Assembly: GCA_965261005.1 (NCBI GenBank)
Contig: OZ253375.1
Span: 2,880,001 to 2,944,000, forward strand
DNA: 64,000 nucleotides
Source of the DNA: Deinococcus sp.
Lineage (GTDB): Bacteria > Deinococcota > Deinococci > Deinococcales > Deinococcaceae
Direction of reading: 5' to 3'
The position numbers and the translations under genes are program-made. The first letter of the stretch is position 1. Each line of letters starts with the position of its first letter. This document shows, piece by piece, positions 3,876-19,121 of this stretch. The notes beneath the pieces were generated by a model. It was given only the letters and a program-made list of their open reading frames with translations. It made no database searches and was not told the DNA's origin.

Positions 3876-4047
3876 GCGGCCAGTCTAAGAGCATGGGCGC
3901 CAAAAGATAAGGGAGCAGAGCGGCCAGTTCGCCACCTGCTCCCTGCGCGCGGGGCCACTCGCCCGCCGTGTTGTGCGCTTCCCCAAAAGTGTGACAGACC
4001 GATTCTTACAAAAGTGTCACGGCGCGGGGCGCGGCTTGAACGTTCAT

Positions 4048-4063
4048 TGTGAAAAACCTGACA
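4048..4063. promoter_or_regulatory. Possible CRP-family (DdrI-type) binding site
   Basis: TGTGA-AAAACC-TGACA, 9/10 match to TGTGA-N6-TCACA, in a divergent intergenic region. Confidence 0.35.
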
Positions 4064-4115
4064 CGGCTCTGATGAAGGGCGTCGCGGGTTTTAAAATCGG
4101 GTGAGGGGTTTAAAC

Positions 4116-4784
4116 ATGCGGACAAACTCTGAAGGACCCGGCTGCCTGACCGCGCGCCCCGGCCTGCCCACACACGTCTCCGCCGAGCGCGGTTTGCAAT
4201 CCCTGCCCCAGGGCGCCCTGCTCTACCTACCGCCCACGGTCCCACTTGCCCAGCCCCTCCCCCTGATCGTGACGCTGCACGGCGCGGGCGGTGACGCTCG
4301 GGGCGCGCTGGCCCCGCTGCGCGCAGCCGCCGACGTTCACGGCCTGTTGCTGCTGGCGCCCAAGTCGCGCGGCCCGACCTGGGACGTGATCCTGGGCGGC
4401 TACGGCCCCGACGTGGCCCTGCTGGACGGGGCGCTGGCTTGGACCTTTGCCCGCTATCCCGTCAACCCCACCCACGTCGTGCTGGAAGGCTTTTCGGACG
4501 GCGCCTCTTACGCCCTCTCGCTGGGGCTGGGCAACGGCGACCTCTTCACCCACCTGCTGGCCTTTTCGCCGGGCTTTCTGGCCCCCGCCGCGCAGGTGGG
4601 CGCGCCGCGCATCTTCGTCTCGCACGGCGACGCCGACCGGGTGCTGCCCATCGAGCGCTGTAGCCGCGTGATCGTGCCCCAGCTGGAGTGGGCCGGGTAC
4701 GACGTGGAGTACCTGGAGTTTGCGGGGCCGCACACGGTGCCAAGTGAGGTGGTGGAGGCGGCGCTGACGTGGCTGGGGGCGTGA
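4116..4784 (+). CDS. Phospholipase/carboxylesterase (alpha/beta hydrolase)
   Basis: LHGAGG, GFSDG nucleophile elbow, HGDAD, GPH. Confidence 0.9.
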   Translation: MRTNSEGPGCLTARPGLPTHVSAERGLQSLPQGALLYLPPTVPLAQPLPLIVTLHGAGGDARGALAPLRAAADVHGLLLLAPKSRGPTWDVILGGYGPDVALLDGALAWTFARYPVNPTHVVLEGFSDGASYALSLGLGNGDLFTHLLAFSPGFLAPAAQVGAPRIFVSHGDADRVLPIERCSRVIVPQLEWAGYDVEYLEFAGPHTVPSEVVEAALTWLGA

Positions 4785-4794
4785 GAGAAGGCTT

Positions 4795-5187
4795 TCACCG
4801 GATCAGCTGCACCTTGAAGGGCAAATCGGGAATCTTCGCCCACCCCCGCTCGGCCGTCAGCACGTCCACGTCCAGCACCTCTGCCGTCCCCAGACAGGCC
4901 GCGTCTCCTAAGCTGAGGTTGTAGGGGGATTTGCGCGCGTAATAAAACGTCGCCCGCTCACGGCAGGAGGCGCCAAAGGACACTTCATCAAGCGCGCCAA
5001 GAAGTTGCCGGAATATTCCGCCGACTTGCCCGTGGGTCAGCTCCCCATGCCCGACGAGCTTTCCTTCCACTTCGGTCAGGGTAATGCTGCTGACGGCGCA
5101 CCGCCGGGCGGTCAGGGCAGCGTCTACCTCAGCAGCCCCCGGCTCGTCGGTGATCAAGGCCATGAGCGCGCTGGCGTCAAGCAGCAC
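4795..5187 (-). CDS. vapC: PIN-domain VapC toxin (TA module 1)
   Basis: LLDASAL...E...LSLGDAACL...LTAE; GTG start 3 nt after the antitoxin stop. Confidence 0.92.
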   Translation of the reverse strand: MLLDASALMALITDEPGAAEVDAALTARRCAVSSITLTEVEGKLVGHGELTHGQVGGIFRQLLGALDEVSFGASCRERATFYYARKSPYNLSLGDAACLGTAEVLDVDVLTAERGWAKIPDLPFKVQLIR

Positions 5188-5190
5188 TGG

Positions 5191-5457
5191 CTACCAGCCC
5201 TTGCTTTCTGCCTCTGCACGGCGGTCGTCCAGCAGCTCTTGCGTCAGGTCGCGGCCAGCCGCCGCCCCCCGCTTCTTCACGATGCCCCGCAAGGAAGCCA
5301 CCAAAAGCCGCCGACTGGTCAGCCGGTAGCCGCCCTCCTCCTTAAGAAGAATCAGCTCGTCGCCCTCCTGCACACCCAGATCGGCGCGAACATCCGAGGG
5401 AACCACAACGCGGCCTTGGGCTTGCAACTTCAAGTGATAGGCAGGAAGAGAGGTCAT
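5191..5457 (-). CDS. AbrB/MazE/SpoVT-type antitoxin (TA module 1)
   Basis: QGRVVVPSDVRADLGVQEGDEL; TATTCT -10 box 5 nt before ATG. Confidence 0.92.
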   Translation of the reverse strand: MTSLPAYHLKLQAQGRVVVPSDVRADLGVQEGDELILLKEEGGYRLTSRRLLVASLRGIVKKRGAAAGRDLTQELLDDRRAEAESKGW

Positions 5458-5615
5458 GCCTGAGAATAGCAAAGTAGGCATAAAGCGGTTACGCTCCTAC
5501 CGGGGCGACTTGCACAATGGCAAGTTCTCGCTGACGAGCTAACCGCCTAAACGCAACATATGGATCTGTTTTAAGTCGTACTCTCAAAAGCGTTACTATG
5601 CTCTCAGGAGTAATC

Positions 5616-5996
5616 ATGACTGAACAAATGCACATCGGCCTCGCCGAACTGCTACGGCAGCACAACGTCAGCCAGAAACAGCTGGCAGAGGCCGCCAATA
5701 TGCGCCCCGCCACCATCAACGCCATCTTCCACGCCCGTATTGAGCGAATCGAGATGAGCACGCTGGTCGAACTGGTCACGGGGTTGCGGCGCCTCGGCAT
5801 CAAGGCGGACGTGGGCGACGTTCTGCACGTCGTCGAGACGCCCGAGGGGGCCGAGCAGGCCGCGCGTGAACGCGCCCTGCGGCTGCTGGGTGGTGAACCC
5901 TGGGGCTTGAAAGTGCGAGGTTCCGCCGTCCTTGCACTTGTCAGCGGCCCGCCCATCGAAGACCTGTTGCCCGAACACCGGGGACCGGAACGTTGA
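5616..5996 (+). CDS. XRE/Cro-type HTH antitoxin (TA module 2)
   Basis: LAELLRQHNVSQKQLAEAANMRPATIN; AGGAG RBS; stop overlaps the toxin start (TTGA). Confidence 0.88.
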   Translation: MTEQMHIGLAELLRQHNVSQKQLAEAANMRPATINAIFHARIERIEMSTLVELVTGLRRLGIKADVGDVLHVVETPEGAEQAARERALRLLGGEPWGLKVRGSAVLALVSGPPIEDLLPEHRGPER

Positions 5997-6418
5997 CGTT
6001 GCTGTACCTGGATACCTCGGCCCTGGCCCGCCTGTACACCTTGGAACCGGACCACGAGAAGGTCCGCGCCGCACAGGCCGCCGCGAACGGGGATATCACC
6101 CACGTCATCACTTACGTAGAGTTACACTCGGCGCTTGCCGGTCGCAGGCAGCGAAAGGCCATCGGCGAGCGTGCCTATCAGGACGCCTTGCGGGACATAG
6201 AGCGGGATTGGCCGATCTTTCGGCATGTCAGCGTAGACGAGCAGCTTTTGCAAGAAGCCGCCCGGCTCGCTGAGACGCATGTTCTCCGGGCCTACGACGC
6301 CGTTCACTTGGCCGCCGCCCGGGTCGTTTCACCGCTCGGCATACAGTTCATGACCTTCGATTTGAGGTTGCGGACCGTTGCAGAACAGGTGATGCCCGGT
6401 CAGGTGTGGCAGCCGTAG
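5993..6418 (+). CDS. vapC: PIN-domain VapC toxin (TA module 2)
   Basis: YLDTSAL...VE...LRAYDAVHLAAA...TFD. Confidence 0.92.
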   Translation: MTLLYLDTSALARLYTLEPDHEKVRAAQAAANGDITHVITYVELHSALAGRRQRKAIGERAYQDALRDIERDWPIFRHVSVDEQLLQEAARLAETHVLRAYDAVHLAAARVVSPLGIQFMTFDLRLRTVAEQVMPGQVWQP

Positions 6419-6454
6419 CCGCGCCGTCTTCGCCTGGAATGATTCGGGCAGAGA

Positions 6455-6856
6455 CTAAACTCGCACCAGTTTCAGCGATACATGCTCGGCATATCGCTGG
6501 AAGTTCCGATCTTTTGTCAGGATGGGCAAGCCCCAGTTCGCGCCGCAAGCGGCGATCAGGAAGTCTGTGCTGCTGCCCTGAATTCCCTTGCCCCGGCAGG
6601 CATTGAAGAACTCTGCCGCGAGTTCGTATTCGGGAAAGGCCACTTCCCCATCTGGCAGAGACCGCAAGCTCTGGCGGATTCGCTCGAACACGTCCTGCCG
6701 GCGTAAGCCCTGCAAGACCTCCTGGCGGATGCAGCCGAGCATCTGAACCCGGCCCTCGCGCACCAGTTCACCCAGCAAGCGCAGTTGCGGTGAGGGGTCG
6801 CCCGCCCGCTTTCTGAACGCTTCGGACCACACGTCGCTGTCAACGATCACCTTCAA
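6455..6856 (-). CDS. vapC: PIN-domain VapC toxin (TA module 3)
   Basis: IVDSDVW...QEVLQG...DFLIAA...LTKDRNF. Confidence 0.92.
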   Translation of the reverse strand: MKVIVDSDVWSEAFRKRAGDPSPQLRLLGELVREGRVQMLGCIRQEVLQGLRRQDVFERIRQSLRSLPDGEVAFPEYELAAEFFNACRGKGIQGSSTDFLIAACGANWGLPILTKDRNFQRYAEHVSLKLVRV

Positions 6857-7062
6857 GCGCGTTTGCGCTGCGCCCGCAACTCCTCGTCGCTCGCCATATC
6901 CGCCGGGTCCACCGTGCCGAAGAGGTCCAGAATCTTGAGCTGTTCACGACGTTGGATGTATTCCGCCAACGCCTCGTTGACCGTCTCGCGCTTGGTGCGC
7001 CGGCCACCGACCTTCAGCGCTCGCTCCAGCAGGTCCGGGTTGATTTGCAGGTTCGTCGCCAT
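6853..7062 (-). CDS. vapB: VapB antitoxin (DUF2191-like) (TA module 3)
   Basis: MATNLQINPDLL.RAL..G...TKRETVNEAL.EYI. Confidence 0.9.
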   Translation of the reverse strand: MATNLQINPDLLERALKVGGRRTKRETVNEALAEYIQRREQLKILDLFGTVDPADMASDEELRAQRKRA

Positions 7063-7066
7063 GGCT

Positions 7067-7094
7067 GATATTACACAAATATTTGTGTAATATC
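7067..7094. promoter_or_regulatory. Perfect 28-bp palindrome, likely VapBC autoregulatory operator
   Basis: GATATTACACAAATATTTGTGTAATATC immediately upstream of the vapB start. Confidence 0.8.
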
Positions 7095-7118
7095 GTGAAG
7101 GGAAGTGCTGAGAGGAAC

Positions 7119-7580
7119 TTATTCCGTCTTGCCCGGCAAAGCGATCTCAATGGTCTGTCCGCTGGCGCGTGGGGTCAGCACGACGGTTATGTCGTACCCG
7201 AGGGCGTCCGCGTGTTGCGCGAGGGTTCCAACCGTAGGGTTGAGCGACCCATTTTCGAGCTGTGACAGCCGCCCCTTGCTCAGCTCACGCCGCCCGGCCA
7301 CTTCCTTGGCCGTCATGCGGGCCTGCTGCCGCGCCAGCTTCAGCGCCCGAGCGACGGTGTCCACAACCAACGCTTCTTGAACGTTGGCGGCCACGCCGCC
7401 CCGGCCCTCCTCGGTCAGCAGGCCGGCGGGCAATCCTTCGGTGGGCGTCACGGTGCCGTCCGCGTTGAGAAGCGCTGTAGCCCGTTCCAGTTTGGCTTTC
7501 AGACGTTCATTCGTGATTTGAGCCTTCTTTCTGCTCGCGCCGTCCAGCGTCGGACCTGCCAACAGAGCGCGCGACGCCAT
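7119..7580 (-). CDS. XRE-family HTH protein, probable orphan HigA-like antitoxin (start uncertain)
   Basis: C-terminal HTH: LKLARQQARMTAKEVA...LSQLENGSLNPTVGTL; no intact toxin upstream. Confidence 0.7.
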   Translation of the reverse strand: MASRALLAGPTLDGASRKKAQITNERLKAKLERATALLNADGTVTPTEGLPAGLLTEEGRGGVAANVQEALVVDTVARALKLARQQARMTAKEVAGRRELSKGRLSQLENGSLNPTVGTLAQHADALGYDITVVLTPRASGQTIEIALPGKTE

Positions 7581-7620
7581 TCACAATCGCGCCTTCTTTT
7601 ATGCGAAAGAGTATGAAGGC

Positions 7621-7875
7621 ATGGAATACGAAACGACGCAGCGCGTGACGGTCAGCCTCCCACATCGTCTCGCCCGTTACCTCGATGAGTACCAGAAAAC
7701 GCACCAGATTGGCAGCCGGAGCGAGGCCGTGGTTCGGGCGATTCAGGCGCTCCGCGAAAAGCAATTGGCCGAGGAGTATGCCCAGATGGCGCGTGACCAC
7801 GACCCCCTCTATGACGCTGTTTTGGATGATCTCACGGACGGTCTGGAAAAAAGTGACGGCAGTGAGTGGCGGTAG
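7621..7875 (+). CDS. Ribbon-helix-helix (CopG-like) antitoxin (TA module 5)
   Basis: RVTVSLP..LARYLD...SRSEAVVRAI; overlaps the toxin gene. Confidence 0.88.
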   Translation: MEYETTQRVTVSLPHRLARYLDEYQKTHQIGSRSEAVVRAIQALREKQLAEEYAQMARDHDPLYDAVLDDLTDGLEKSDGSEWR

Positions 7876-8213
7876 GACTGATTCGCCGGGGCGACATTCT
7901 GCTGGTGAACTTTGCTCCCGCGCGTGAGGGGGAGGCCAATTACACCTGGCCCGCCGTGGTGGTAACAAACAACGCGGCCAACGCCAACGCGCCCGTGCTG
8001 ATGGTCGTTCCCTTGACGACCAATCTGGAGCGGATGTACTCCATTCACCTGTTGCTGCCATACCAGCGCACCGGACTGAATGAGGACAGCAAAGCCCAAC
8101 CGGAGGCCCTGCGGGCCATCTCGCTGAGCCGCGTTCTCCGCCGCCTGGGGCACGTTCCGGAGGACCTGATGGCACAGCTCGACGATCGAATCCGGCTGCA
8201 CCTCGCGCTGTAG
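7866..8213 (+). CDS. mazF: PemK/MazF-family toxin (TA module 5)
   Basis: IRRGDILLVNFAP..EGEA...PAVVVTN...VVPLTT...DSKA..E..RLHLAL. Confidence 0.9.
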   Translation: MAVGLIRRGDILLVNFAPAREGEANYTWPAVVVTNNAANANAPVLMVVPLTTNLERMYSIHLLLPYQRTGLNEDSKAQPEALRAISLSRVLRRLGHVPEDLMAQLDDRIRLHLAL

Positions 8214-8240
8214 GGCAGAGGGCGTTCCTACAGCTTTCCC
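8201..8240 (+). repeat. 40-bp junction repeat A (mazF 3' end plus downstream), second copy at 9055-9094
   Basis: CCTCGCGCTGTA(G/A)GGCAGAGGGCGTTC(C/G)TACAGCTTTCCC, 38/40 identical. Confidence 0.9.
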
Positions 8241-8341
8241 TTTGTCTGGAGCAGCAGGCGCGCGTGCTGGACTCGCTCAGAGAGCTGAAACCGTTCCAAT
8301 CATGCTAAAAATATAGTCAGTGCTGGTCAGGAGGATGAAGA

Positions 8342-8587
8342 ATGAGAACGCGGTGGCCGCTTCAAGACGCAAAAACTCACTTCAGCGAACTGGTGGACGC
8401 CGCCTTGACCGAAGGTCCGCAGGCGGTGACTCGGCACGGCAAGAACGCCGTCGTCGTGCTTTCGCATGACGATTATGTGCGTCTCAAACAGGCCAGCACA
8501 ACGCTGGCGGACGCGCTGGGCGGCGCCCCCGAAGAGCTGTCCTTTGAGCGTGACCGGACACCTGTACCCATCCTTCAGCTCGATTGA
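8342..8587 (+). CDS. Phd/YefM-family antitoxin (TA module 6)
   Basis: WPLQDAKTHFSELVDAAL.EGPQ.VTRHGK..VVVLS. Confidence 0.93.
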   Translation: MRTRWPLQDAKTHFSELVDAALTEGPQAVTRHGKNAVVVLSHDDYVRLKQASTTLADALGGAPEELSFERDRTPVPILQLD

Positions 8588-9003
8588 TGTACTTGCTCGA
8601 TACCAACGTCGTGAGCGAGCGCACTAAACCGCAGCCCAACAAACGGGTCATGACCTGGCTGAATGGCCATACGGTTGGGCAGACCTACCTGAGCGTCATC
8701 ACGCTGGCCGAACTGGAACAGGGTGCGATGCTCAAGGGCGACACCAAGCGGGCGGGCGAGTTGCGGGCGTTTCTGCGGCGCCTGGAGGAGCAGTTCACGG
8801 GCCGGGTCTTGCCCGTTGACCGGGCGGTGGCGCGAACCTGGGCCAACATGACCGCCGGGGCTATTTCGGCGGGCAAGACGCCAAGCTACGCCGACGCCCT
8901 GATCGCGGCCACGGCGCTGACGCACGGGCTAACGGTCGTCACCCGCAACGTGGCGGACTTTCGAGCCGTGACCACCGACGTGGTGAACCCCTGGGAAGAA
9001 TGA
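8584..9003 (+). CDS. vapC: PIN-domain VapC/FitB toxin (TA module 6)
   Basis: YLLDTNVVSE...SVITLAEL...DALIAATA..HGL.VVTRN..DF...NPW. Confidence 0.95.
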   Translation: MMYLLDTNVVSERTKPQPNKRVMTWLNGHTVGQTYLSVITLAELEQGAMLKGDTKRAGELRAFLRRLEEQFTGRVLPVDRAVARTWANMTAGAISAGKTPSYADALIAATALTHGLTVVTRNVADFRAVTTDVVNPWEE

Positions 9004-9111
9004 GGAGTGGGGCATGCAGCCACCTCGCCGCGCAACCTTCTGCCACCGGCTCCTCCTCGCGCTGTAAGGCAGAGGGCGTTCGTACAGCTTTCCCCGCCGT
9101 TCCTACCCACC

Positions 9112-9144
9112 CCGCCCAACCCCACCGTCTGTAGCTGCGGCCTG
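9112..9144 (+). repeat. ~30-bp junction repeat B, further copies at 10183-10215 and 10997-11025
   Basis: CCGCCCAAC(C)CCACCGTCTGT(A/G)GCTGCGGC-like motif downstream of three TA modules. Confidence 0.85.
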
Positions 9145-9193
9145 TGCTGACGCAGGAGCTTGGGCAAGTTGCCAATGTGGTCTCCTTTTTTTT

Positions 9194-9329
9194 ATACGGA
9201 TTCCGCTTACTTCCTCAACATCGGGAAAAGCGCCCGATGTTGCTCCAGACCGCGAAACCCGTATTTTTTTCGTAGCCGCTCCGCTGGAAACTCAGTCAAC
9301 TTCGTTGACTGAGTTTCCGGAATCCGTAT
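9194..9329. repeat. Deinococcus small non-coding repeat (SNR/MITE-like), copy 1
   Basis: 12-bp terminal inverted repeat ATACGGATTCCG/CGGAATCCGTAT, two internal hairpins; homologue at 27661-29280. Confidence 0.85.
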
Positions 9330-9367
9330 TACTTCTGAAAGTGTTACCCTTTCTCCAGGGGGTAAGC

Positions 9368-9748
9368 ATGACCGCACAGATGCATATCGGTCTCGCTGAG
9401 CTTTTGCGGCGTCACAACATCAGCCAGAAGCGGCTGGCTGATGCCGCTGGAATGCGCTCGGCAACAGTCAACGCCATCTTTCACGGACGCGTGGAACGGG
9501 TGGAAATAGGTACGCTTGTAGACCTCGTAACGGGTCTGCGGCGCCTGGGTGTCGAGGCTGATGTGGGCGACATTTTGCAAGTTGTAGACGAGCCGGACGA
9601 GACCGAACAGGCCGCCCGCGAACGCGCCCTGCGGCTGCTTGGGGGCGAATCCTGGGGACTGAAACCTAGGGGCCTGGCCGAGCCTGTCACGGTGAGCGGC
9701 CCTCCTATTGAAGACCTTCTGCCCGACTTCCTGGGACCGTCGCTCTGA
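9368..9748 (+). CDS. XRE/Cro-type HTH antitoxin (TA module 7, paralogue of 5616-5996)
   Basis: MTAQMHIGLAELLRRHNISQKRLA, closely similar to the module 2 antitoxin. Confidence 0.88.
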   Translation: MTAQMHIGLAELLRRHNISQKRLADAAGMRSATVNAIFHGRVERVEIGTLVDLVTGLRRLGVEADVGDILQVVDEPDETEQAARERALRLLGGESWGLKPRGLAEPVTVSGPPIEDLLPDFLGPSL

Positions 9749-10170
9749 GCCTGCTCTACCTGGATACCTCCGCGCTGCTTCGCCTCTACACCCGCGAACC
9801 GGACTATGGGCAGGTTGCCGCCCGCAAGGAACAGGCAGACGGCGTGATCTGCCATGTCATCACCTCCGTGGAGATGGTTTCTGCCTTCACCGGTCGGCAG
9901 GCTCGAAAGTTGCTGAGTGGGCGGGCGTATGAGACAGCCCTGGAGGCGTTTAGGAGCGATTGGCCGACCTTTCGGCACGTTGCTGTGGACGAAGAAGTGT
10001 TACAGGACGCCGCCGACCTCGCTCAAGCTCACGGTCTGCGGGCCTACGACGCCGTTCACCTCGCCGCTGCCCAGGCCATCTCCCCGCTCGGCGTGCAGTT
10101 CATGACCTTCGACCTGCGGCTGCGGGCCGTGGCTGAACAGGTCATGCCCGGCCAGGTGTGGCGGCCGTAG
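9745..10170 (+). CDS. vapC: PIN-domain VapC toxin (TA module 7), apparent CTG start
   Basis: Frame extends upstream of the called ORF: (M)SLLYLDTSALLRLY, colinear with the module 2 toxin; CTG overlaps the antitoxin TGA. Confidence 0.85.
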   Translation: MSLLYLDTSALLRLYTREPDYGQVAARKEQADGVICHVITSVEMVSAFTGRQARKLLSGRAYETALEAFRSDWPTFRHVAVDEEVLQDAADLAQAHGLRAYDAVHLAAAQAISPLGVQFMTFDLRLRAVAEQVMPGQVWRP

Positions 10171-10276
10171 CCGTTCCCCATCCCGCCCAACCTCACCGGC
10201 TGGGGCTGCGGCCTGGGTGGGGGCATAACTGTTGCATCTGCTTCGAATACTGCGAATAATAGGGCTGAGGTGAAGT

Positions 10277-10696
10277 ATGACCCTGCACCACACACCCGAC
10301 CTGAAGGAACAGACCCTTGCCAGAGACGCCCAACAGCTCCTGAGTCGCGCCGACGTACAACTGAGTACAGACACGGAGAGCCTCTCCCTGACTCCAGCCC
10401 TCGCCGAATTGCTGCGCGGTCTGCTGGAGCGTCTGGGCAAAGGCGAGAGCGTCACTGTGCTGAGCCGCGACGAGGAACTCAGCACCCAGCAGGCCGCCGA
10501 ATTGCTGGGGGTCAGCCGTCCTTACTTGATTGAGCAGCTTCTAGAGGAGCGCAAGATCCCGTACCGCAAAGTCGGTAAGCACCGCCGCATTCGTGTCCGT
10601 GACTTGCTGGCTCATCAGGAGCGGGAGCAAGCCGAGAAGCGAGCCTTGGTTCGTGAGATCACCGAACTGGCCCAGGAGATGGGGCTGGAGTATTGA
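10277..10696 (+). CDS. Excisionase-family (HTH_17) DNA-binding antitoxin (TA module 8)
   Basis: ELSTQQAAELLGVSRPYLI..LLEE.KIPYRKVGKHRRI...L...AQEMGL. Confidence 0.9.
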   Translation: MTLHHTPDLKEQTLARDAQQLLSRADVQLSTDTESLSLTPALAELLRGLLERLGKGESVTVLSRDEELSTQQAAELLGVSRPYLIEQLLEERKIPYRKVGKHRRIRVRDLLAHQEREQAEKRALVREITELAQEMGLEY

Positions 10697-10985
10697 TCTC
10701 CGTATGGACGCTGCCCTGAGTGCGGGCGCAGGCGTCGTGCTGACCTTCAACCTGGCCGACTTTCCTGCTTCGGCCCTGCCGCCGTCCTTGCAGGCCATTC
10801 ACCCCGACGTGTTTCTGGCCGCCTGTCTGGAGCAGCAGCAGGCGCGCGTGCTGGACGCGCTCGGAGAATTGCGGGCCGACCTGAAAAAGCCGCCGTTAAA
10901 CCCGGACGATCTGCTGGCGGCCATGCCGCGCGCTGAACTTCCGGGGTTTGCCGAGCGGCTGCGGCCGTTCAGGAAGAGAATTTAG
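10693..10985 (+). pseudogene. Internally deleted PIN toxin gene (TA module 8)
   Basis: TTG-ATC-TCC-GTA start coupled to the antitoxin stop, then out of frame only the C-terminal AALSAGAGVVLTFNLADFP...HPDVFL...LKKPP part. Confidence 0.75.
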
Positions 10986-11098
10986 CCTGCTCCGCTCCGC
11001 CCAACCCACCGTCTGTGGCTGCGGCGGGGGCGGAAGGAGAGAGCAATCTAGACTCACCCTATTAATTTTTGCGGCGGCCGAACCAAAGATTATAAGCT

Positions 11099-11929
11099 AT
11101 GCTGCCTCTACTCGATAGGGGAAGGGGGGCAGCAGTGGAGATTGTGGCAAAAAACACATTCAATGTGAAGATGACAGGGCAGGTGCTGCCTCAAACTGTA
11201 GCTGCATCTGTTCTGGGAGACTTTATTACCCAAATCGAAAAGGCTATTCTCGCTGTAATTGGGGAAAGCCAAGAGAGCAATCCTGACTTTGCTTTAGTAA
11301 GCTTGATTGACGTGAGCGAGGGAAGTAATAGACTACATTTTGCTGCGCCACCGACTGTAATACCAGCGGTTGGAGCTATAACTAATGCCGTATTTACGGG
11401 AAACTTTAGCAGTATACCTAGAAAAGCACACGAATATTTATATGCAGCTAATAGAATATGCCACAGGCACTCATGGGGAATTGAATTCGAGGCCAACGAA
11501 TATTATGACATAAGGGGTGTAACCATTCCTCCCGGTTATTTAATACCAGAACCAAGCAAAAGTTTAATGCGCGGCACCCAATCTGTAATAGGTAGAGTCA
11601 TAAGGGCTGGAGGTGTCGAGCCTAAAGTGCATCTAAAGCAATTAGAGACAGACAAATCGTTTCACATCTCTGTTTCGGAAAGCATTGCTCGTGAATTAGC
11701 TGGGAAGCTGTACGATATTGTCGTTTTAGAATGCGAAACTTTTTGGGATACTGACACTTGGGAGATAGATGTATCCCGCATGAATGTTATTAGCGTCGCT
11801 CCTTATTATAAACCCTTGAGTCCAAGTAGAGCTTTTGAAAACTTACGTATAGCCGCTAACGGCTTTTGGGAAGGCGAAAACCCCCTAGCATATGAACACG
11901 CTACAAGAGTGGATGATGAGGACGAATGA
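11099..11929 (+). CDS. AT-rich hypothetical protein, upstream partner of PIN gene (module 9)
   Basis: Clean 276-codon ORF in AT-rich DNA; ATGA overlap with the next gene; no family recognised. Confidence 0.8.
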   Translation: MLPLLDRGRGAAVEIVAKNTFNVKMTGQVLPQTVAASVLGDFITQIEKAILAVIGESQESNPDFALVSLIDVSEGSNRLHFAAPPTVIPAVGAITNAVFTGNFSSIPRKAHEYLYAANRICHRHSWGIEFEANEYYDIRGVTIPPGYLIPEPSKSLMRGTQSVIGRVIRAGGVEPKVHLKQLETDKSFHISVSESIARELAGKLYDIVVLECETFWDTDTWEIDVSRMNVISVAPYYKPLSPSRAFENLRIAANGFWEGENPLAYEHATRVDDEDE

Positions 11930-12444
11930 TCTGCATCGATACAAACACACTGATTTTTGGAGTGCAGAGGAGATCATCACCCGAACATCAAACTCAGATA
12001 GAAGCCGCATCATATTATCTAAGAACACTCAAAAGCTCTGAGATTATACTTGTTCCCTCTCCCGTTGCCTTTGAATATGTTCAGGGCTTTCCTACAAAAT
12101 TTGAACGAGACGAAAATTTTAAAGCTCTCAGCGAAAATTTCTTTATTCCGGGTTTTGATGCTCTAACGGCACGTCTAGCTGCCGAGATATCGGCTACCTG
12201 TGGAGGACCAAAAGGGGTAAGCAAACTAACCGGTTTGCCTAAGCCAGACATTAGACTAGACATACAAATTATTGCTACTGCAATTATACACCAAGCAAGC
12301 ACTATTATTACGTTCAACGAATCCGAGTTTAACAAAATAATCAGTGCATCTGGAATGCAATCAAGGGTAAGGGCTAGATGGGTAACTTCACTCACACAAC
12401 CCTCTTTGTTTGGGCCATCCGACTCGACGGGATTGTCTAACTGA
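11926..12444 (+). CDS. AT-rich PIN-domain nuclease (module 9)
   Basis: ICIDTNTLI...VAFEY...DIQIIATAI...IITFN PIN acidic motifs. Confidence 0.88.
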   Translation: MICIDTNTLIFGVQRRSSPEHQTQIEAASYYLRTLKSSEIILVPSPVAFEYVQGFPTKFERDENFKALSENFFIPGFDALTARLAAEISATCGGPKGVSKLTGLPKPDIRLDIQIIATAIIHQASTIITFNESEFNKIISASGMQSRVRARWVTSLTQPSLFGPSDSTGLSN

Positions 12445-12446
12445 GT

Positions 12447-13333
12447 AGACCTCCTGCGAAAGTGGTGAGCTAGGGTGGGGAATGGCGCACGAACGGTACG
12501 AGCGGACGATGAAGATGAATCGCGTGCGGTTCAAACGGCGCACTGGGGTGTACCCGGAAACGTTCGAGGCCATGCGCATCGTTGTGGAGCAACGCGAGCA
12601 GACGAAGAAAAAGTCAGGCCGTCCCGCCGCCCTGAGTCCAGCCAAGCAGTTGCTGTTGACGCTGGAATTTTGGCGTGAGTACCGCAGCCAAGCCCACCTC
12701 GGCGACGATTGGGGCGTGCACGAAACCACCGTGCTGCGAACCATCGAACGGGTTGAAGCCGCCTTGCTGGCGAGCAGTCAGTTCACCTTGCCCAGTCGCC
12801 GGGCGCTGACCAGCGAAACGGTGTATAGCGCCGTGTTGGTCGATGTGTCCGAAGTGCCGTGCGAGCGACCCCAAAAAAACAGCGAGCGTGGTACAGCGGT
12901 AAGAAAAAGCGCCACACCCAGAAAATCCAGCTGATGATTGAGGCCGTTACAGGCCGCATCATGTGCGTGACAGCAGGCCAGGGCTCGACACACGACCTCA
13001 CGCTGCTGCGCGACTCGGGTGCCCGACTGCACCCGGAAACCGCGCTGATCGCCGACGCCGGGTATCAGGGCGTGAAGCGTGATCATGCTCACTCGCTGAC
13101 ACCGCACAAAGCCACCAAGCGCGCCCCGCTCACTTCTGAGCAACGGTACGAGAACCGCGTGCTGGCGCACTTCCGTCAAAAAATCGAACATGTCATCCGA
13201 CGGCTCAAGATCTTCCGGGTGCTCAAGGAGACGTACCGCCACCGAAGAAGGCGCTTTGGGCTGCGCCTGCATCTCCTCGCCGCACTCGTCAACCTGACCC
13301 TGGACGTCAAATCATGACTTTCGCAGGAGGTCT
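12447..13333 (+). mobile_element. IS5-family element, copy 1
   Basis: 17-bp TIR AGACCTCCTGCGAAAGT/ACTTTCGCAGGAGGTCT; AGT target duplication; two-ORF transposase. Confidence 0.92.
12482..13317 (+). CDS. IS5-family transposase, -1 frameshift at A7 (12873-12879)
   Basis: HTH ORF A plus DDE ORF B (YSGKKKRHT, HDL, ADAGYQG, IEHVIRRLK.F). Confidence 0.9.
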
Positions 13334-13745
13334 AGTGGTATCTGATTAGCGCCTGAGGTTCATCAAAACGGCTACGGGATCCTGCCCACGCAGGCGAGCG
13401 GTTTCAATGACGCTCTTGATGCGGGTGTAGCTGGTGGCGCCCACAGCGTTCTTGCTGCACTGCGACACCTTTCTCGCCATGACGACGCTACGCAACGCTC
13501 GTTCTGCGGCGTTGTTGGTGGGTGGAAGGTCCGGATCACTCAGGAACAGCAACAGGCGGCCTCGCCCATGCTGTTCGAGCAGTCCCCGTCGCAAGCGTTC
13601 GTTGTCCCTCGACTTCAGCGGCCTGCGGTTCAGCAAGTGCCCTAGTCGCTCCGTCAGTGGCTCACCTTGCCGTGCGTATTCCTGCCGAGTCACCAGCCCC
13701 TGGTGATAGGCAGCGTGCAGCCGAATCCCGTCCCTGAACAGTTGA

Positions 13746-14934
13746 CTGACATATTGCAGTTTAAGGAGCGTGGGTAGGGATGGCGTCTTGAGCGGCGTCG
13801 AGGTCAGCGAGTTCGAGGAGCAGGGCGGCACGGCGCACGTCGGCGAGCAGGGTGAGCCGCAGGGCTTTGGCCAGTTCACCCCAATCCGGCCACTCGCCAG
13901 GTGGCCGTGGTGGCAAGTCGAGATCGGCCAAGTGACACAGCAGGAAGGCCAAGGTCGAGAGGCACCAAAAGCGGAAGGCGCCCTGTTTGCTGTGCTGGGC
14001 AAAGCGTTCCAAACCGAAACGGCCTTTGATGGTTTTGAAGAACGCCTCGATCTTCCAGCGACGTTTGCCTACACGGGCCAGGTAGACACCGCCCAGTTTG
14101 CAGCTGGACATCACGAAACGCTGTTCGGGCTGCGTGTTGCGGTACAGCCAAACCCAAGAGACGGTCATGTGCTGACGCAGTCCTTGAGGGGTGACGGTCG
14201 AGCCACGCACGGTGAGGTCGGCGACGGTGCGGCCATCTGCGAGCTTGCGGTTTTTGCGCACGCCCACGATCAGATCGAACCCAACGTCGAGGACACCGTG
14301 GATGAAGGTGGCACACTCGAAGCCGCCGTCGGCATGCACGCGCGCCTTTCGACCGCTGCTGAGCAACCCCTTGGGAACGCTGCGGAGCAGTTTAAGGGCC
14401 AGCACGGCGGGTGAGGGGGTGCCTTTACCGCGCCAGACCTGGACGGCCCAGGGCAAGCGGAGCGGACCACAGCAGAGGTAGAGGACGACCAGATGAACGC
14501 CGTGGACGCCGTTGTAGACGTGCATCCAGTCATCCAACTGCTCAAAGTGGCCGGTCTTTTCCAAGCTGGTGAGGTCGATCAAGAGTTCGAGGCGGGGACG
14601 CTGGTGGGGAGCTGAGCGCCAGAAGTCGAGGAGCGTTTGCTGAGCGTGGTGACGCAGGGCGCGAACGAGGGAGCGGGTGGACCAGCCGTAGTGGTTGAGA
14701 AACCGGCTGATGGCAGCGGGAGACTTGACGGTGGCTTGACTGGGGAATGGTCGGCCCTTGGCTTCGAGGAGCAAGTCGAGGAAGACGCGCAACGAGTCGC
14801 GGTGCTGCTTACGAGCGAAGCTCTTGAGGATGTCAGAATAGAGTTGTCTGGAACGTGCTTCTTTTGGATTCACACCCCAGCTTGGGGCCAAAACCGCGTT
14901 CCAGACAACCCCTATGAAATCTGCAACATGTCAG
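13746..14934 (-). mobile_element. IS701/IS4-like element nested in IS66
   Basis: TIR CTGACATATTGCAG/CTGCAACATGTCAG; TTGA target duplication (13742-13745, 14935-14938). Confidence 0.88.
13761..14891 (-). CDS. IS701-like DDE transposase
   Basis: IDLTSLEKTG, ADGGF, RRWKIEAFFKTIKGRFGL; true start may be GTG at 14873. Confidence 0.85.
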   Translation of the reverse strand: MAPSWGVNPKEARSRQLYSDILKSFARKQHRDSLRVFLDLLLEAKGRPFPSQATVKSPAAISRFLNHYGWSTRSLVRALRHHAQQTLLDFWRSAPHQRPRLELLIDLTSLEKTGHFEQLDDWMHVYNGVHGVHLVVLYLCCGPLRLPWAVQVWRGKGTPSPAVLALKLLRSVPKGLLSSGRKARVHADGGFECATFIHGVLDVGFDLIVGVRKNRKLADGRTVADLTVRGSTVTPQGLRQHMTVSWVWLYRNTQPEQRFVMSSCKLGGVYLARVGKRRWKIEAFFKTIKGRFGLERFAQHSKQGAFRFWCLSTLAFLLCHLADLDLPPRPPGEWPDWGELAKALRLTLLADVRRAALLLELADLDAAQDAIPTHAP

Positions 14935-15990
14935 TTGAGCGAGCCGCTGTCCATACAGCTCTCCTCGACCTGGCCGTTGTTTGGCTTGCTCAGCAGTCTG
15001 GTCAGCATTGCGGATCAGGTGCGCCAGACACTTCTGCTGCTGCACCCCGTCCAAGAGGCGGCTGTCATACACCTTGAAACGGTCCGTCACCAGCGTTCCC
15101 GCAAACGCATTCCCCAACACAGCCCGCAGTTCTGCGTTCCCGTGCTTGCGGTTGACCCGGAACAGCACGCTGTCTTCTGAGCGGAAGGTGCTGATCCACG
15201 CCGGGCTGGCGTTCATCCGCCAGCCCGTGTCGTCATGGTGGACATACGCGGCAGCTCGCAGTTCTGCTGCAAGCGCTTCGACCTGCACAGCCAAAGGACC
15301 ACCATCTTCTGCCAGTCGCATAGCGGCCTGGTTGATGGCCCCTTGCGTCACACGGATGCCCGTGGTCAGGTGCAGCACGCGGGGCAAACGGCGTTCCGGG
15401 ATGCCCTGCTCATGGCGCAAGGTCTGGATCACCGCCTCAAGGCGTGCCCCGTAACGATGGGCGGTGGCCCCACACTGATCTGAAGCGAGGTCAGCGTGTT
15501 GACCACGCACCGACTGTCCGCAGACCGGGCAGACCATCACCGGCACGTGGTACGCCGTCACCTGCATGGCCTGCTCGGGCGCCAAGTCGGTGATCCAGGC
15601 TTTGTCCATCCGCTTGAACAGCAACTCGCCCGTGTACCCGCACTTGGCACAACTGTTGGGGGGAGCAACCTGGATCACCGCCTGCACCGACTCAGGTTCG
15701 GGCGGGACTTTGTATGTGAACGTCCCGACGCCAGCTCGGCGCCCGGACGGCTGAGCATCCGCTTTGCGCACCTCGCGGCTGTGTGGCGCGACGTACTTCT
15801 TTCCCTTGCGCTCCAACGCTTCGATACGCTTCCTGAGTCGGGTGTTCTCGACCTGAAGCTGCTCGATCTGCTCGCTTTGCCGACGGAGCACCTCAAGCAC
15901 GTCTCGCTCCGTCAGTTCCCCAGCCATGCCCTGACTCTAGCCCATCTGACCCTTCTCGCGTCATTGCCGGCTCAGCCGACGGATACACCG

Positions 15991-19089
<3,099 letters not shown>

Positions 19090-19121
19090 TCCGAGGGAGG
19101 AGCATAACACGAGGGGGAGAT

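What the first reader, a model, noticed from the sequence alone, without database searches (positions are those of the whole stretch)
11099..12444. AT-rich two-gene unit: large unknown protein coupled to a divergent PIN nuclease
Seen: clearly lower GC than the host; a 276-aa ORF with an ATGA overlap to a 172-aa PIN protein. The partner is about three times the size of a usual antitoxin and has no visible HTH/RHH. It has a beta-rich C-terminal part (VIGRVIRAGG..PKVHL...ARELAGKLY..V.L) suggestive of an OB-like fold, and an acidic tail (DDEDE). Inference: a recently acquired non-canonical TA or sensor-effector anti-phage system, where the large protein senses a trigger and the acidic tail restrains the PIN RNase.
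Basis: partly seen in the sequence, partly recalled or inferred. Interest (0 to 1): 0.75.

Follow-up and report, generated by a model that had tools for sequence, protein, structure and literature searches.

The report
Mobile PIN nuclease with large OB-fold partner
A foreign, AT-rich two-gene cassette encodes a PIN-type RNase and, just upstream, a large protein from a widespread family that curated databases do not name; this protein is predicted to clamp over the nuclease's active site, like a toxin-antitoxin pair with a new kind of antitoxin.

Summary
Two co-oriented ORFs, 11099-11929 and 11926-12444, overlap by ATGA. Their GC is 0.44/0.42 and GC3 0.37/0.35, against a window GC of 0.66.

The downstream protein is a divergent PIN nuclease. 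The upstream protein has no Pfam, NCBIfam or PADLOC family. It does belong to a large family: 952 representative clusters at E<=1e-3, mostly about 257 aa.

With 137 homologues, AlphaFold2 models it confidently (pLDDT 92.5). The model has an N-terminal alpha/beta domain, a canonical OB fold and two C-terminal helices.

The pairing recurs. Latescibacterota MAGs carry the same ATGA overlap, again as a low-GC insert. One distant homologue is fused to a PIN of the same subfamily.

A complex prediction passes its controls (score 0.80, best control 0.00). It places the OB face and C-terminal region over PIN residues D5, E50, 110-111 and 130.

Best reading: a mobile, VapBC-like module with a new, large inhibitory partner. 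It sits at the end of a toxin-antitoxin gene array, next to IS elements.

Toxicity, neutralisation, the trigger and any anti-phage role are untested.

The parts
11055..11134 (+). 5' edge of the low-GC cassette and leader. It holds a Shine-Dalgarno-like GGAAGGGGGG at 11119-11128, ahead of the GTG at 11135.
   Evidence: GC in 40-nt windows drops from 0.65 to 0.38 at about 11060. The sequence was read. No consensus promoter was found here.
11099..11929 (+). Gene A, the large PIN partner. It is 276 aa from ATG 11099, and more likely 264 aa from GTG 11135.
   Evidence: - ORF.
- Homologues at 49-53% identity start at the position of V13.
- 952 representative clusters at E<=1e-3, 563 at E<=1e-10.
- No Pfam, NCBIfam or PADLOC family.
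11150..11548 (+). N-terminal alpha/beta domain of A (residues 18-150). Its fold is unassigned. It carries the invariant Ser76 in a GS turn.
   Evidence: - AF2 secondary structure with pLDDT mostly 84-98.
- S76 is invariant in 137 of 137 sequences.
- No PDB sequence relative.
11564..11800 (+). OB-fold domain of A (residues 156-234). It carries the family motif G159-x-T-T...R169-V-G-G-x-x-P175.
   Evidence: - Topology E156-171, E176-181, E187-191, H194-201, E207-217, E229-234.
- Foldseek best hits are IF1, SSB/Rim1, RPA, the LysRS N-domain and ExoVII.
- Residues 157-164, 181-186 and 207-223 lie in the predicted PIN interface.
11804..11926 (+). C-terminal PIN-binding region of A (residues 236-276). 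It comprises helices 242-252 and 262-274 with W257, D261 and R270, followed by the acidic tail VDDEDE.
   Evidence: - Predicted contacts 236-246, 248-254, 256-263, 265-267 and 269-272.
- W257 (W in 107 of 137), D261 position (D in 117) and R270 (R in 128) are conserved.
- Tails are acid-enriched across the family.
11926..12444 (+). Gene B, a divergent VapC-like PIN nuclease of 172 aa. Putative catalytic residues are D5 (11938-11940), E50 (12073-12075), D112 (12259-12261) and N131 (12316-12318).
   Evidence: - Pfam PIN E 1.9e-4; phrog_21691 E 8.6e-11.
- D5, E50 and D112 are invariant in the 4-sequence alignment; position 131 is N in the window and P0005, with D nearby (SHD, in a gapped stretch of the alignment) in L001/L002.
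- P0075 has T-H-D at the matching place in the hhalign alignment.
- Atlas nearest clusters are PIN (0.95).
12446..13334 (+). Adjacent IS element that forms the 3' boundary. It is not part of the system.
   Evidence: - 23-nt inverted repeats at 12446-12468 and 13312-13334, 91% complementary.
- HTH_Tnp_4 and DDE_Tnp_4 in two overlapping frames.

Best explanation
This is a horizontally acquired, translationally coupled two-gene module that works like VapBC. Gene B encodes a divergent PIN-domain, Mg-dependent RNase, which is the toxin or effector. Gene A encodes its cognate binding partner, which holds it inactive.

A is not a small DNA-binding antitoxin. It is a roughly 260-aa globular protein from a large family that Pfam, NCBIfam and PADLOC do not cover. 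It has three parts: an N-terminal alpha/beta domain, an OB fold, and a C-terminal two-helix extension ending in a short acidic tail.

The C-terminal extension and one face of the OB fold are predicted to wrap over the PIN catalytic pocket and block substrate access.

**Shown:** the gene anatomy, the foreign composition, the conserved pairing in three lineages, the fold, and a predicted interface that passes its controls.

**Inferred:**
- that binding is inhibitory;
- that the free PIN is toxic;
- that release happens either by loss of A or, more plausibly for a well-folded partner, when a nucleic-acid or protein ligand competes for the OB face.
For: 1. **Gene order and coupling.** The ATGA overlap is the same as in the neighbouring Phd-VapC pair at 8342-8587/8584-9003.
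2. **The pairing recurs.**
   - Latescibacterota loci L001/L002 have an A homologue (260 aa, 4001..4783) overlapping a 159-aa PIN (4780..5259) by ATGA. That PIN is 30% identical to the window PIN.
   - P0075 (465 aa) carries the A domain at 17-277 and a PIN at 291-426. Its PIN part matches this PIN subfamily at hhalign E 4.3e-23 and 40% identity.
3. **Complex prediction.** Score (ipSAE) 0.80, best of 3 controls 0.00. That mark was reached by 116 of 157 solved complexes and 2 of 215 mismatched pairs, and these counts hold only roughly because my own alignments were used. The runs agree in at least 90% of contacts and the partner pLDDT is at least 82.
   - PIN interface residues include 5-8, 50, 78-81, 110-111 and 130, which flank D5, E50, D112 and N131.
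   - A contributes 157-164, 181-186, 207-223 and 236-272.
   - Neither protein has a PDB relative by sequence.
4. **Interface conservation.** Predicted interface residues of A are more conserved than the rest: 2.03 against 1.71 bits, Mann-Whitney p 0.011. A loosely defined C-terminal motif written from the alignment (W/F/Y ... D/N/S ... R) is found in 121 of 139 listed members of 240 aa or more.
5. **Context.** The pair closes an array of TA-type genes. Five other PIN ORFs, one PemK, one Phd and HTH proteins lie between 4795 and 10985. IS elements follow directly.
6. **Mobility.** The pair is a low-GC insert in two unrelated high-GC hosts. Both protein families match PHROGs of unknown function: the PIN matches phrog_21691, and the L001 A protein matches phrog_19868 at 1.4e-7.
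Against: - No experiment. Toxicity and neutralisation are unknown.
- The window PIN scores just below Pfam's gathering cut-off. It has N rather than D at the fourth acidic position, so it could be weakened.
- Pairing was seen in only three lineages out of a family of 952 clusters.
- A is large and confidently folded, unlike the labile, partly disordered antitoxins of classical type II systems. It shows no DNA-binding family for autoregulation.
- The fused form P0075 fits an autoinhibited single-chain effector better than a classical addiction module.
- The window's own A protein has no PHROG hit. Seven tblastn searches of the phage and plasmid collections found nothing.
- A predicted interface is the model's confidence, not a measurement.
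Confidence: 0.6

Rival explanations
1. This is a sensor-effector abortive-infection system rather than an addiction-type TA. A is a sensor whose OB face or N-terminal domain recognises a phage nucleic acid or protein. Ligand binding displaces the PIN, which then degrades RNA and aborts the infection. A would then be required for regulated activation, not merely for neutralisation.
For: - The partner is globular and confidently folded, so not an obvious protease substrate.
- The OB surface is part of the predicted PIN interface, so a ligand could compete with the PIN.
- The fused A-PIN protein P0075 resembles autoinhibited single-chain defence toxins.
- Foldseek against viral models finds full-length similarity to a DUF6575 protein of a Siphoviridae contig (E 5e-9, TMq 0.46, 261 columns) and to two other phage proteins. 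The Atlas's nearest named cluster is also DUF6575, at a weak 0.76. DUF6575 is listed among the domains of the defence systems found by Vassallo et al. 2022 (PMC9519451, passages read).
- Two-protein PIN systems that defend without being TA systems exist, such as DS-5 in PMC13092281 (passages read).
- The module is mobile and AT-rich in two hosts.
Against: - No PADLOC model matches the window proteins at E<=1. Among 137 family members only scattered matches of 1-2 members each appear.
- 0 of 137 members hit Pfam DUF6575. The structural match has 10% identity and rmsd 6.9 A.
- The Latescibacterota copy is flanked by PhyH dioxygenase, SDR and CoA-transferase genes, not by defence genes.
- No phage phenotype is known.
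Confidence: 0.25
2. This is a two-subunit RNA-processing nuclease rather than a toxin system. The OB-fold protein recruits and positions an RNA or ssDNA substrate for the PIN active site, as OB/S1/TRAM modules do next to PIN domains in other nucleases. That comparison is recalled from general knowledge and was not tested here.
For: - The OB fold is a typical nucleic-acid-binding module, and the best structural matches are IF1, SSB, RPA and a tRNA-synthetase anticodon-binding domain.
- The OB domain is predicted to sit directly beside the PIN catalytic pocket.
- Both families match PHROGs, so phages may use them for their own nucleic-acid metabolism.
Against: - The predicted contacts cover the catalytic residues themselves (5-8, 50, 110-111, 130) with the C-terminal helices of A. 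That looks like occlusion rather than an open composite site.
- The OB domain of the window protein is net acidic: 9 K+R against 12 D+E in 79 residues.
- Patchy, mobile, low-GC distribution and placement in a TA array are unlike housekeeping enzymes.
Confidence: 0.1
3. This is a decaying remnant. The cassette is intact as ORFs but no longer functional, left stranded among IS elements.
For: - The window proteins are divergent members. A differs from the family majority at T161Q, G212C, F228M, D261N and V266E.
- The PIN has N131 and a sub-threshold Pfam score.
- An IS starts 2 nt after the PIN stop codon.
Against: - Both ORFs are full length with the coupling overlap preserved.
- C212 is shared by the close clade, with C in 8 of 137 sequences.
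- N at position 131 is shared with the 54%-identical homologue P0005, so it is a clade trait rather than a recent lesion.
- The complex prediction was made on the window sequences themselves.
Confidence: 0.05

Closest known systems
VapBC type II toxin-antitoxin modules (PIN toxin VapC with antitoxin VapB; FitAB is a solved example, recalled from memory and cited in PMC10440598's reference list)
   Same: - The upstream partner is translationally coupled to a downstream PIN nuclease.
- D5, E50 and D112 are conserved in the PIN.
- The partner's C-terminal region is predicted to lie over the PIN active site.
- A conserved Arg (R270) sits in that region. This recalls the Arg that FitA and VapB antitoxins insert into the acidic pocket (recalled, not tested).
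- The pair lies in a TA array.
   Different: - The partner is about 260 aa, roughly three times the usual size.
- It is globular, with an N-terminal alpha/beta domain and an OB fold.
- It has no RHH, AbrB, HTH or Phd domain hit.
- Its family is absent from Pfam, NCBIfam and PADLOC.
- The PIN belongs to a divergent subfamily with N at the fourth acidic position in the window clade.
DS-5 of DefensePredictor (PIN ribonuclease with a DUF5830/AcrIF4-like partner; PMC13092281, passages read)
   Same: Both are two-protein systems with a PIN effector and a large, non-antitoxin-like partner. In DS-5 the partner is required for defence, and the system was judged not to be a TA.
   Different: The partner here has no DUF5830 or other Pfam hit. 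No homology between the two was tested directly, because DS-5 sequences were not at hand.
DUF6575-containing phage and defence proteins (domain listed among the PD systems of Vassallo et al. 2022, PMC9519451, passages read)
   Same: - Foldseek full-length structural similarity to a DUF6575 protein of a Siphoviridae contig: E 5e-9, TMq 0.46, 261 columns.
- The nearest named Atlas cluster is also DUF6575.
   Different: - 10% identity.
- 0 of 137 family members match Pfam DUF6575 at E<=0.01.
- The target is 370 aa.
- No PIN partner is known for it from my calls.
OB-fold single-strand nucleic-acid binders (IF1, bacterial and mitochondrial SSB, RPA)
   Same: - Five-strand OB topology with a helix between b3 and b4.
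- These are the top Foldseek PDB matches.
- OB plus acidic C-terminal tail recalls the layout of SSB (recalled).
   Different: - No sequence similarity.
- The Foldseek E values are only 5e-3 to 3e-2.
- The OB domain is net acidic in the window protein and is embedded in a larger protein.
- Nucleic-acid binding is untested.

Membership tests
VapBC (type II TA, PIN toxin) | The toxin has a PIN domain with the conserved acidic residues. | tested here: met
   - Pfam PF01850 E 1.9e-4 at 22.5 bits for the window protein, below the 23.6 gathering score. Relatives pass: 30.8, 32.0 and 26.5 bits.
- D5, E50 and D112 are invariant in 4 of 4 aligned sequences. The fourth position is N in the window and P0005, with D nearby (SHD) in L001/L002; P0075 has T-H-D there.
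VapBC (type II TA, PIN toxin) | The antitoxin gene lies immediately upstream, co-oriented and translationally coupled. | tested here: met
   ATGA overlap at 11926-11929. The same overlap occurs in L001/L002 at 4780-4783.
VapBC (type II TA, PIN toxin) | The antitoxin is small (about 70-100 aa) with an N-terminal DNA-binding domain (RHH, AbrB, HTH or Phd). | tested here: not met
   - The protein is 264-276 aa.
- No DNA-binding family in Pfam or NCBIfam at E<=1.
- 0 of 137 family members hit such a family at E<=0.01.
- The AF2 model shows an alpha/beta domain plus an OB fold.
VapBC (type II TA, PIN toxin) | The antitoxin's C-terminal region binds the toxin and occludes its active site. | tested here: inconclusive
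   This rests on prediction only: ipSAE 0.80 against a best control of 0.00, with A 236-272 plus the OB face against PIN 5-8, 50, 110-111 and 130. No measurement.
VapBC (type II TA, PIN toxin) | The toxin arrests growth and the cognate antitoxin neutralises it. | not testable with these tools
   Needs expression assays.
Known anti-phage defence systems (PADLOC-DB v2.0.0) | Match to a model of a described or candidate defence protein. | tested here: not met
   No hit at E<=1 for either window protein. Among 137 family members, 11 different models were hit by only 1-2 members each, with a best E of 7e-4.
DUF6575 (PF20215) proteins | Sequence match to the Pfam model. | tested here: not met
   0 of 137 members at E<=0.01. 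The only links are structural similarity and a weak Atlas lead of 0.76.
OB-fold nucleic-acid-binding proteins | Five-stranded closed beta-barrel with b1-b2-b3-alpha-b4-b5 topology. | tested here: met
   AF2 pLDDT is 96-98 over residues 156-234 with that strand and helix order. The top Foldseek PDB hits are all OB folds, though with E of 5e-3 or weaker.
OB-fold nucleic-acid-binding proteins | Binds ssDNA or RNA. | not testable with these tools
   Needs gel-shift or similar assays. The domain is net acidic in the window protein.
Lon protease proteolytic domain | Ser-Lys catalytic dyad in the Lon P-domain fold. | tested here: not met
   - The profile hit to archaeal Lon P domains (1z0e) has E 2.6e-4 over profile positions 72-169.
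- The D-S-A-S stretch of the Lon chain, where I recall its catalytic Ser to lie (not checked in any call), aligns with unconserved family residues.
- AF2 assigns the matching G-x-x-x-x-G-x-V-x-x-V-G-G hairpin to OB strands b1-b2.
- Only 1 of 137 members hits TIGR00764.
- BrxL appears at Foldseek rank 32.

The most novel reading that the evidence does not exclude
The roughly 950-cluster, unnamed family of 260-aa OB-fold proteins is a widespread class of infection sensors. Each member holds a dedicated PIN RNase inactive through its OB face and C-terminal helices. It releases the PIN, or in fused forms such as P0075 un-masks it, when a phage-derived nucleic acid or protein competes for the OB surface. 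This would be a new mobile abortive-infection system carried by bacteria and phages alike.
Probability: 0.2. Interest if true: 0.8.

Novelty: new variant of a known kind. Interest (0 to 1): 0.58.

Why it matters
PIN toxins are among the commonest bacterial toxins. Their known antitoxins are small DNA-binding proteins.

Here a large, confidently folded partner replaces them. It comes from a family with hundreds of sequence clusters that Pfam, NCBIfam and PADLOC do not cover. If it is confirmed, three things follow:
- a sizeable piece of "hypothetical protein" space gets a function;
- a new neutralisation architecture is added, built from an OB face plus a two-helix clamp;
- a trigger mechanism becomes testable, namely competition at the OB surface, which links toxin-antitoxin pairs to sensor-effector immunity.

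The module travels as an AT-rich cassette into unrelated high-GC genomes. That makes it a clean case for studying how such modules spread.

Tried and rejected
- **Family searches.** Scans for the 276-aa protein and for 137 relatives found nothing consistent in Pfam, NCBIfam or PADLOC. In PHROGs the window A protein had no hit; the L001 A protein (phrog_19868) and both PINs (phrog_21691) matched families of unknown function.\n- **PDB by sequence.**\n - Nothing for the PIN profile at E<=1.\n - Only chance-level rows for the single window PIN sequence (E 2.1) and for the N-terminal domain (E 0.9).\n - The family profile gave a borderline hit to archaeal Lon P domains (E 2.6e-4).
Full report
**Observation.**
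The window holds two co-oriented ORFs at exactly the stated coordinates: 11099..11929 (276 aa) and 11926..12444 (172 aa). They share the four bases ATGA at 11926-11929.

The region is a sharp compositional outlier.
- GC in 500-nt windows is 0.47, 0.43 and 0.44 across 11001-12500, against 0.60-0.70 on either side.
- Third-position GC is 0.372 and 0.347. Eight other genes in the window range from 0.63 to 0.91.
- GC falls at about 11060. The 3' edge is set by an IS element whose 23-nt inverted repeats lie at 12446-12468 and 13312-13334, so it starts 2 nt after the PIN stop codon.

Both ORFs are real genes. The first has three homologues at 49-53% identity (E 1e-77 to 3e-73). The second has one at 54% identity (E 6.5e-53).

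One correction: the first gene most likely starts at GTG 11135, giving 264 aa. A GGAAGGGGGG run lies 6 nt upstream. The three close homologues begin at that position. Residues 1-17 model poorly.

**The nuclease.**
The 172-aa protein matches Pfam PIN at E 1.9e-4 and 22.5 bits, just under the 23.6-bit gathering score. Three relatives pass the cut-off: P0005 at 30.8, the PIN part of P0075 at 32.0, and the L001 protein at 26.5 bits.

It also matches phrog_21691, of unknown function, at 8.6e-11. Its nearest Atlas clusters are PIN proteins (0.95).

In a four-sequence alignment D5, E50 and D112 are invariant. The fourth acidic position is N131 in the window protein and in P0005. L001/L002 have D nearby (SHD), in a gapped stretch of the alignment, and P0075 has T-H-D at the matching place. 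It has no PDB relative by sequence.

**The partner.**
The 276-aa protein has no family in Pfam, NCBIfam or PADLOC at E<=1, apart from one chance-level DUF6922 hit.

A profile of the four close sequences, searched against 1.84 billion cluster representatives, found 952 proteins at E<=1e-3, 563 at E<=1e-10 and 59 at E<=1e-30. Of the 150 listed, 138 are 240-290 aa, 11 are shorter and one is 465 aa.

Scanning 137 members individually gave no consistent family:
- Pfam: at most 2 of 137 on any model.
- PADLOC: at most 2 of 137 on any model.
- NCBIfam: at most 3 of 137 on any model.

So this is a large family that these three libraries do not cover. The Atlas suggests mostly Pseudomonadota, with one cluster commonest in Uroviricota.

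**Fold.**
With the 137-sequence alignment, AlphaFold2 gives mean pLDDT 92.5 and pTM 0.78. The model has three parts:
- an N-terminal alpha/beta domain, about residues 18-150;
- a five-stranded barrel with a helix between strands 3 and 4 (residues 156-234), which is the canonical OB topology;
- two C-terminal helices, 242-252 and 262-274.

Foldseek against the PDB found no match at E<=1e-3. Its best hits have E of 5e-3 to 3e-2 and probabilities mostly 0.9-1.0. They are IF1, IF5A, mitochondrial and bacterial SSB, RPA, the LysRS anticodon-binding domain and ExoVII. All are OB folds and all align to the C-terminal half.

Against predicted viral structures the whole protein matches three targets:
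- a DUF6575 protein of a Siphoviridae contig: E 5e-9, TMq 0.46, 261 columns, 10% identity;
- a Myoviridae protein: E 6e-7;
- a Leptospira phage LE1 protein: E 2.4e-6.

DUF6575 is also the nearest named Atlas cluster, at a weak 0.76. It is listed among the domains of the E. coli defence systems of Vassallo et al. (PMC9519451, passages). No family member matches the Pfam DUF6575 model, so I treat this as a remote structural lead only.

A borderline profile hit to archaeal Lon protease domains (E 2.6e-4) rests on a G...G-x-V-x-x-V-G-G hairpin, which the model assigns to OB strands 1-2. The stretch where I recall the Lon catalytic Ser to lie aligns with unconserved positions. I reject this as homology.

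**Conserved positions.**
Ser76, in a G-S turn of the N-terminal domain, is invariant in 137 of 137 sequences. Nearly invariant positions include G159, T161, G171, G172, P175, Y205, W216 and R270. The role of Ser76 is unexplained, and it lies outside the predicted PIN interface.

**Is the pairing conserved?**
Three independent observations say yes.
1. The window clade itself.
2. Two Latescibacterota MAG chromosomes (L001, L002; near-identical loci, counted as one lineage). They carry a 260-aa family member at 4001..4783 that overlaps, again by ATGA, a 159-aa PIN at 4780..5259. That PIN is 30% identical to the window PIN and starts with the same MIC(I/L)DT motif.
3. P0075, a distant member, is a 465-aa protein with the family domain at 17-277 and a PIN at 291-426. 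Its PIN part matches this PIN subfamily at hhalign E 4.3e-23 and 40% identity. Its sequence shows a 12-residue linker and no Met before ICFDT. It is therefore either a true fusion or a read-through call of adjacent genes.

In L001 the pair is also a low-GC insert (0.38-0.50 against 0.58-0.66). There it lies between PhyH dioxygenase, SDR and CoA-transferase genes.

This is a small sample of a large family. The wider census could not be run, for three reasons:
- Two genome scans gave only these 2 loci.
- Eight tblastn searches of plasmid and phage collections and one blastn of E. coli genomes gave nothing.

**Do the two proteins bind?**
The complex prediction scored 0.80 (three runs: 0.80, 0.80, 0.81) against a best control of 0.00.
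- That mark was reached by 116 of 157 solved complexes and 2 of 215 mismatched pairs. These counts hold only roughly because my own alignments were used.
- The runs agree in at least 90% of contacts, and the partner pLDDT is at least 82.
- Neither protein has a solved relative by sequence. PIN-antitoxin complexes as a class are well represented among solved structures, so some of the confidence may reflect that likeness.

The confident interface on the partner is 157-164, 181-186 and 207-223 (one OB face) plus 236-272 (the C-terminal helices and the loop with W257, D261 and R270). On the PIN it includes 1, 5-8, 10-18, 50, 53-55, 60-84, 105-111, 120-125 and 130. That surface surrounds D5, E50, D112 and N131.

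Interface residues of the partner are more conserved than the rest: 2.03 against 1.71 bits, Mann-Whitney p 0.011.

Residues 273-276, the DDEDE tail, are not among the confident contacts. However, tails after R270 are acid-rich across the family: 41% D+E against 14% overall, with 96 of 137 net negative. The tail may therefore contribute, but the evidence points first to the helices and the OB face.

**Context in the window.**
The pair closes a dense array of TA-type genes:

| Type | Coordinates |
|---|---|
| PIN ORFs | 4795-5187 (-), 5993-6418, 6455-6856 (-), 8584-9003, 9844-10170 |
| PemK | 7866-8213 |
| Phd | 8342-8587 |
| HTH proteins | 5598-5996, 7119-7580 (-), 9305-9748, 10277-10696 |

Downstream lie the IS at 12446-13334 and an IS66-family transposase gene split by another IS. 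No tRNA, Rfam family or tandem repeat is nearby.

**How it most likely works.**
- **Shown:** a foreign, mobile, coupled two-gene unit; a PIN nuclease with three of four acidic residues conserved; a large partner with an OB fold; recurrence of the pair; a predicted interface that passes its controls and covers the catalytic pocket.
- **Inferred:** the partner inhibits the PIN by occlusion, as VapB and FitA antitoxins do (that comparison is from general knowledge). The free PIN would cleave RNA and arrest growth.
- **How the PIN is freed is open.** The partner is globular and confidently folded, and a fused form exists. I therefore think ligand competition at the OB face is at least as likely as proteolytic loss of the partner. 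This is speculation.

My confidence figures are about 0.6 that the partner is the PIN's cognate inhibitory binding protein, 0.25 for the defence-sensor version, 0.1 for the substrate-adaptor reading and 0.05 for a dead remnant.

**Comparison with what is known.**
The module works like VapBC, but the partner fails the defining antitoxin feature of being small with an RHH, AbrB, HTH or Phd domain. I therefore do not file it as a canonical VapBC member.

It resembles in concept the PIN-plus-large-partner defence pair DS-5 (PMC13092281, passages). It also resembles the many PIN/antitoxin combinations mapped by NetFlax (PMC10440598, passages). None of the passages or listings I saw describes an OB-fold partner of this kind. 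Supplementary tables were not read and might list the family.

**Verdict.**
This is a real and well-delimited feature. It is a new variant of a known kind: a PIN toxin module with a novel, widespread partner family that curated libraries do not cover. Interest is moderate to good. It would rise considerably if the partner proves to be a sensor.

Noticed in passing
window 4795-10985: A dense array of TA-type genes lies upstream of the finding.
- PIN ORFs at 4795-5187 (-), 5993-6418 (+), 6455-6856 (-), 8584-9003 (+) and 9844-10170 (+).
- PemK at 7866-8213 and Phd at 8342-8587.
- HTH proteins at 5598-5996, 7119-7580 (-), 9305-9748 and 10277-10696.

With the finding this makes six PIN genes in under 8 kb. 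GC here is 0.58-0.65, slightly below the 0.67-0.70 of the flanks.
   Followed up: partly
window 12446-13334: An 889-bp IS with 23-nt terminal inverted repeats (91% complementary) starts 2 nt after the PIN stop codon. Its transposase is in two overlapping frames: 12482-12934 (HTH_Tnp_4) and 12859-13317 (DDE_Tnp_4). It is either frameshift-expressed or broken.
   Followed up: partly
window 13346-15927 (-): An IS66-family transposase gene appears split. Its N-terminal part is at 14833-15927 and its C-terminal part at 13346-14002. A DDE_Tnp_1 transposase ORF (13761-14891) lies between them, giving nested IS insertions next to carB (15991-19110).
   Followed up: no
window 9844-10170 and 10593-10985: The PIN ORF at 9844-10170 matches only model positions 47-119 of Pfam PIN, so it is N-terminally truncated or its start is mis-set. 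The 130-aa ORF at 10593-10985 overlaps the HTH_17 gene (10277-10696) by about 100 nt and has no Pfam hit. Its 'VVLTFNLADF' stretch looks like the end of a PIN domain, so it may be a frameshifted toxin.
   Followed up: no
window 11324-11326 (Ser76 of gene A): Ser76, in a G-S beta-turn of the N-terminal domain, is the only residue invariant in all 137 aligned family members, whose mean column identity is 28%. It lies outside the predicted PIN interface, and its role (structural turn, nucleophile or modification site) is unexplained.
   Followed up: partly
window 11564-11650 (A residues about 156-181): The family motif G-x-T-T-x-Y-G-x-x-x-R-V-G-G-x-x-P-K/R resembles the G...G-x-V-L-P-V-G-G-x-x-K hairpin of Lon protease domains.
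- Profile hit to PDB 1z0e at E 2.6e-4.
- 1 of 137 members hits TIGR00764.
- BrxL appears at Foldseek rank 32.

I judged this a local resemblance within the OB fold, not homology.
   Followed up: partly
L001 3600-5600 and L002 same: In two Latescibacterota MAGs the homologous pair is also a low-GC insert (0.38-0.50 against about 0.6). It lies between two PhyH dioxygenase genes. Downstream, a pair of 14-nt inverted repeats (CTGACGTTACGCAG / CTGCGTAACGTCAG) sits about 100 nt apart at roughly 5360-5480.
   Followed up: no
window 11038-11054 and 11272-11288: A 17-nt direct repeat (AGAGAGCAATCTAGACT / AGAGAGCAATCCTGACT, 88% identical) occurs once at the 5' edge of the cassette and once inside gene A. 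It may be chance.
   Followed up: no
window 11926-12444: The window's own PIN protein was not returned as a database entry by the homologue search, whereas the 276-aa protein was (P0001). The source annotation may lack this gene or use another start.
   Followed up: no
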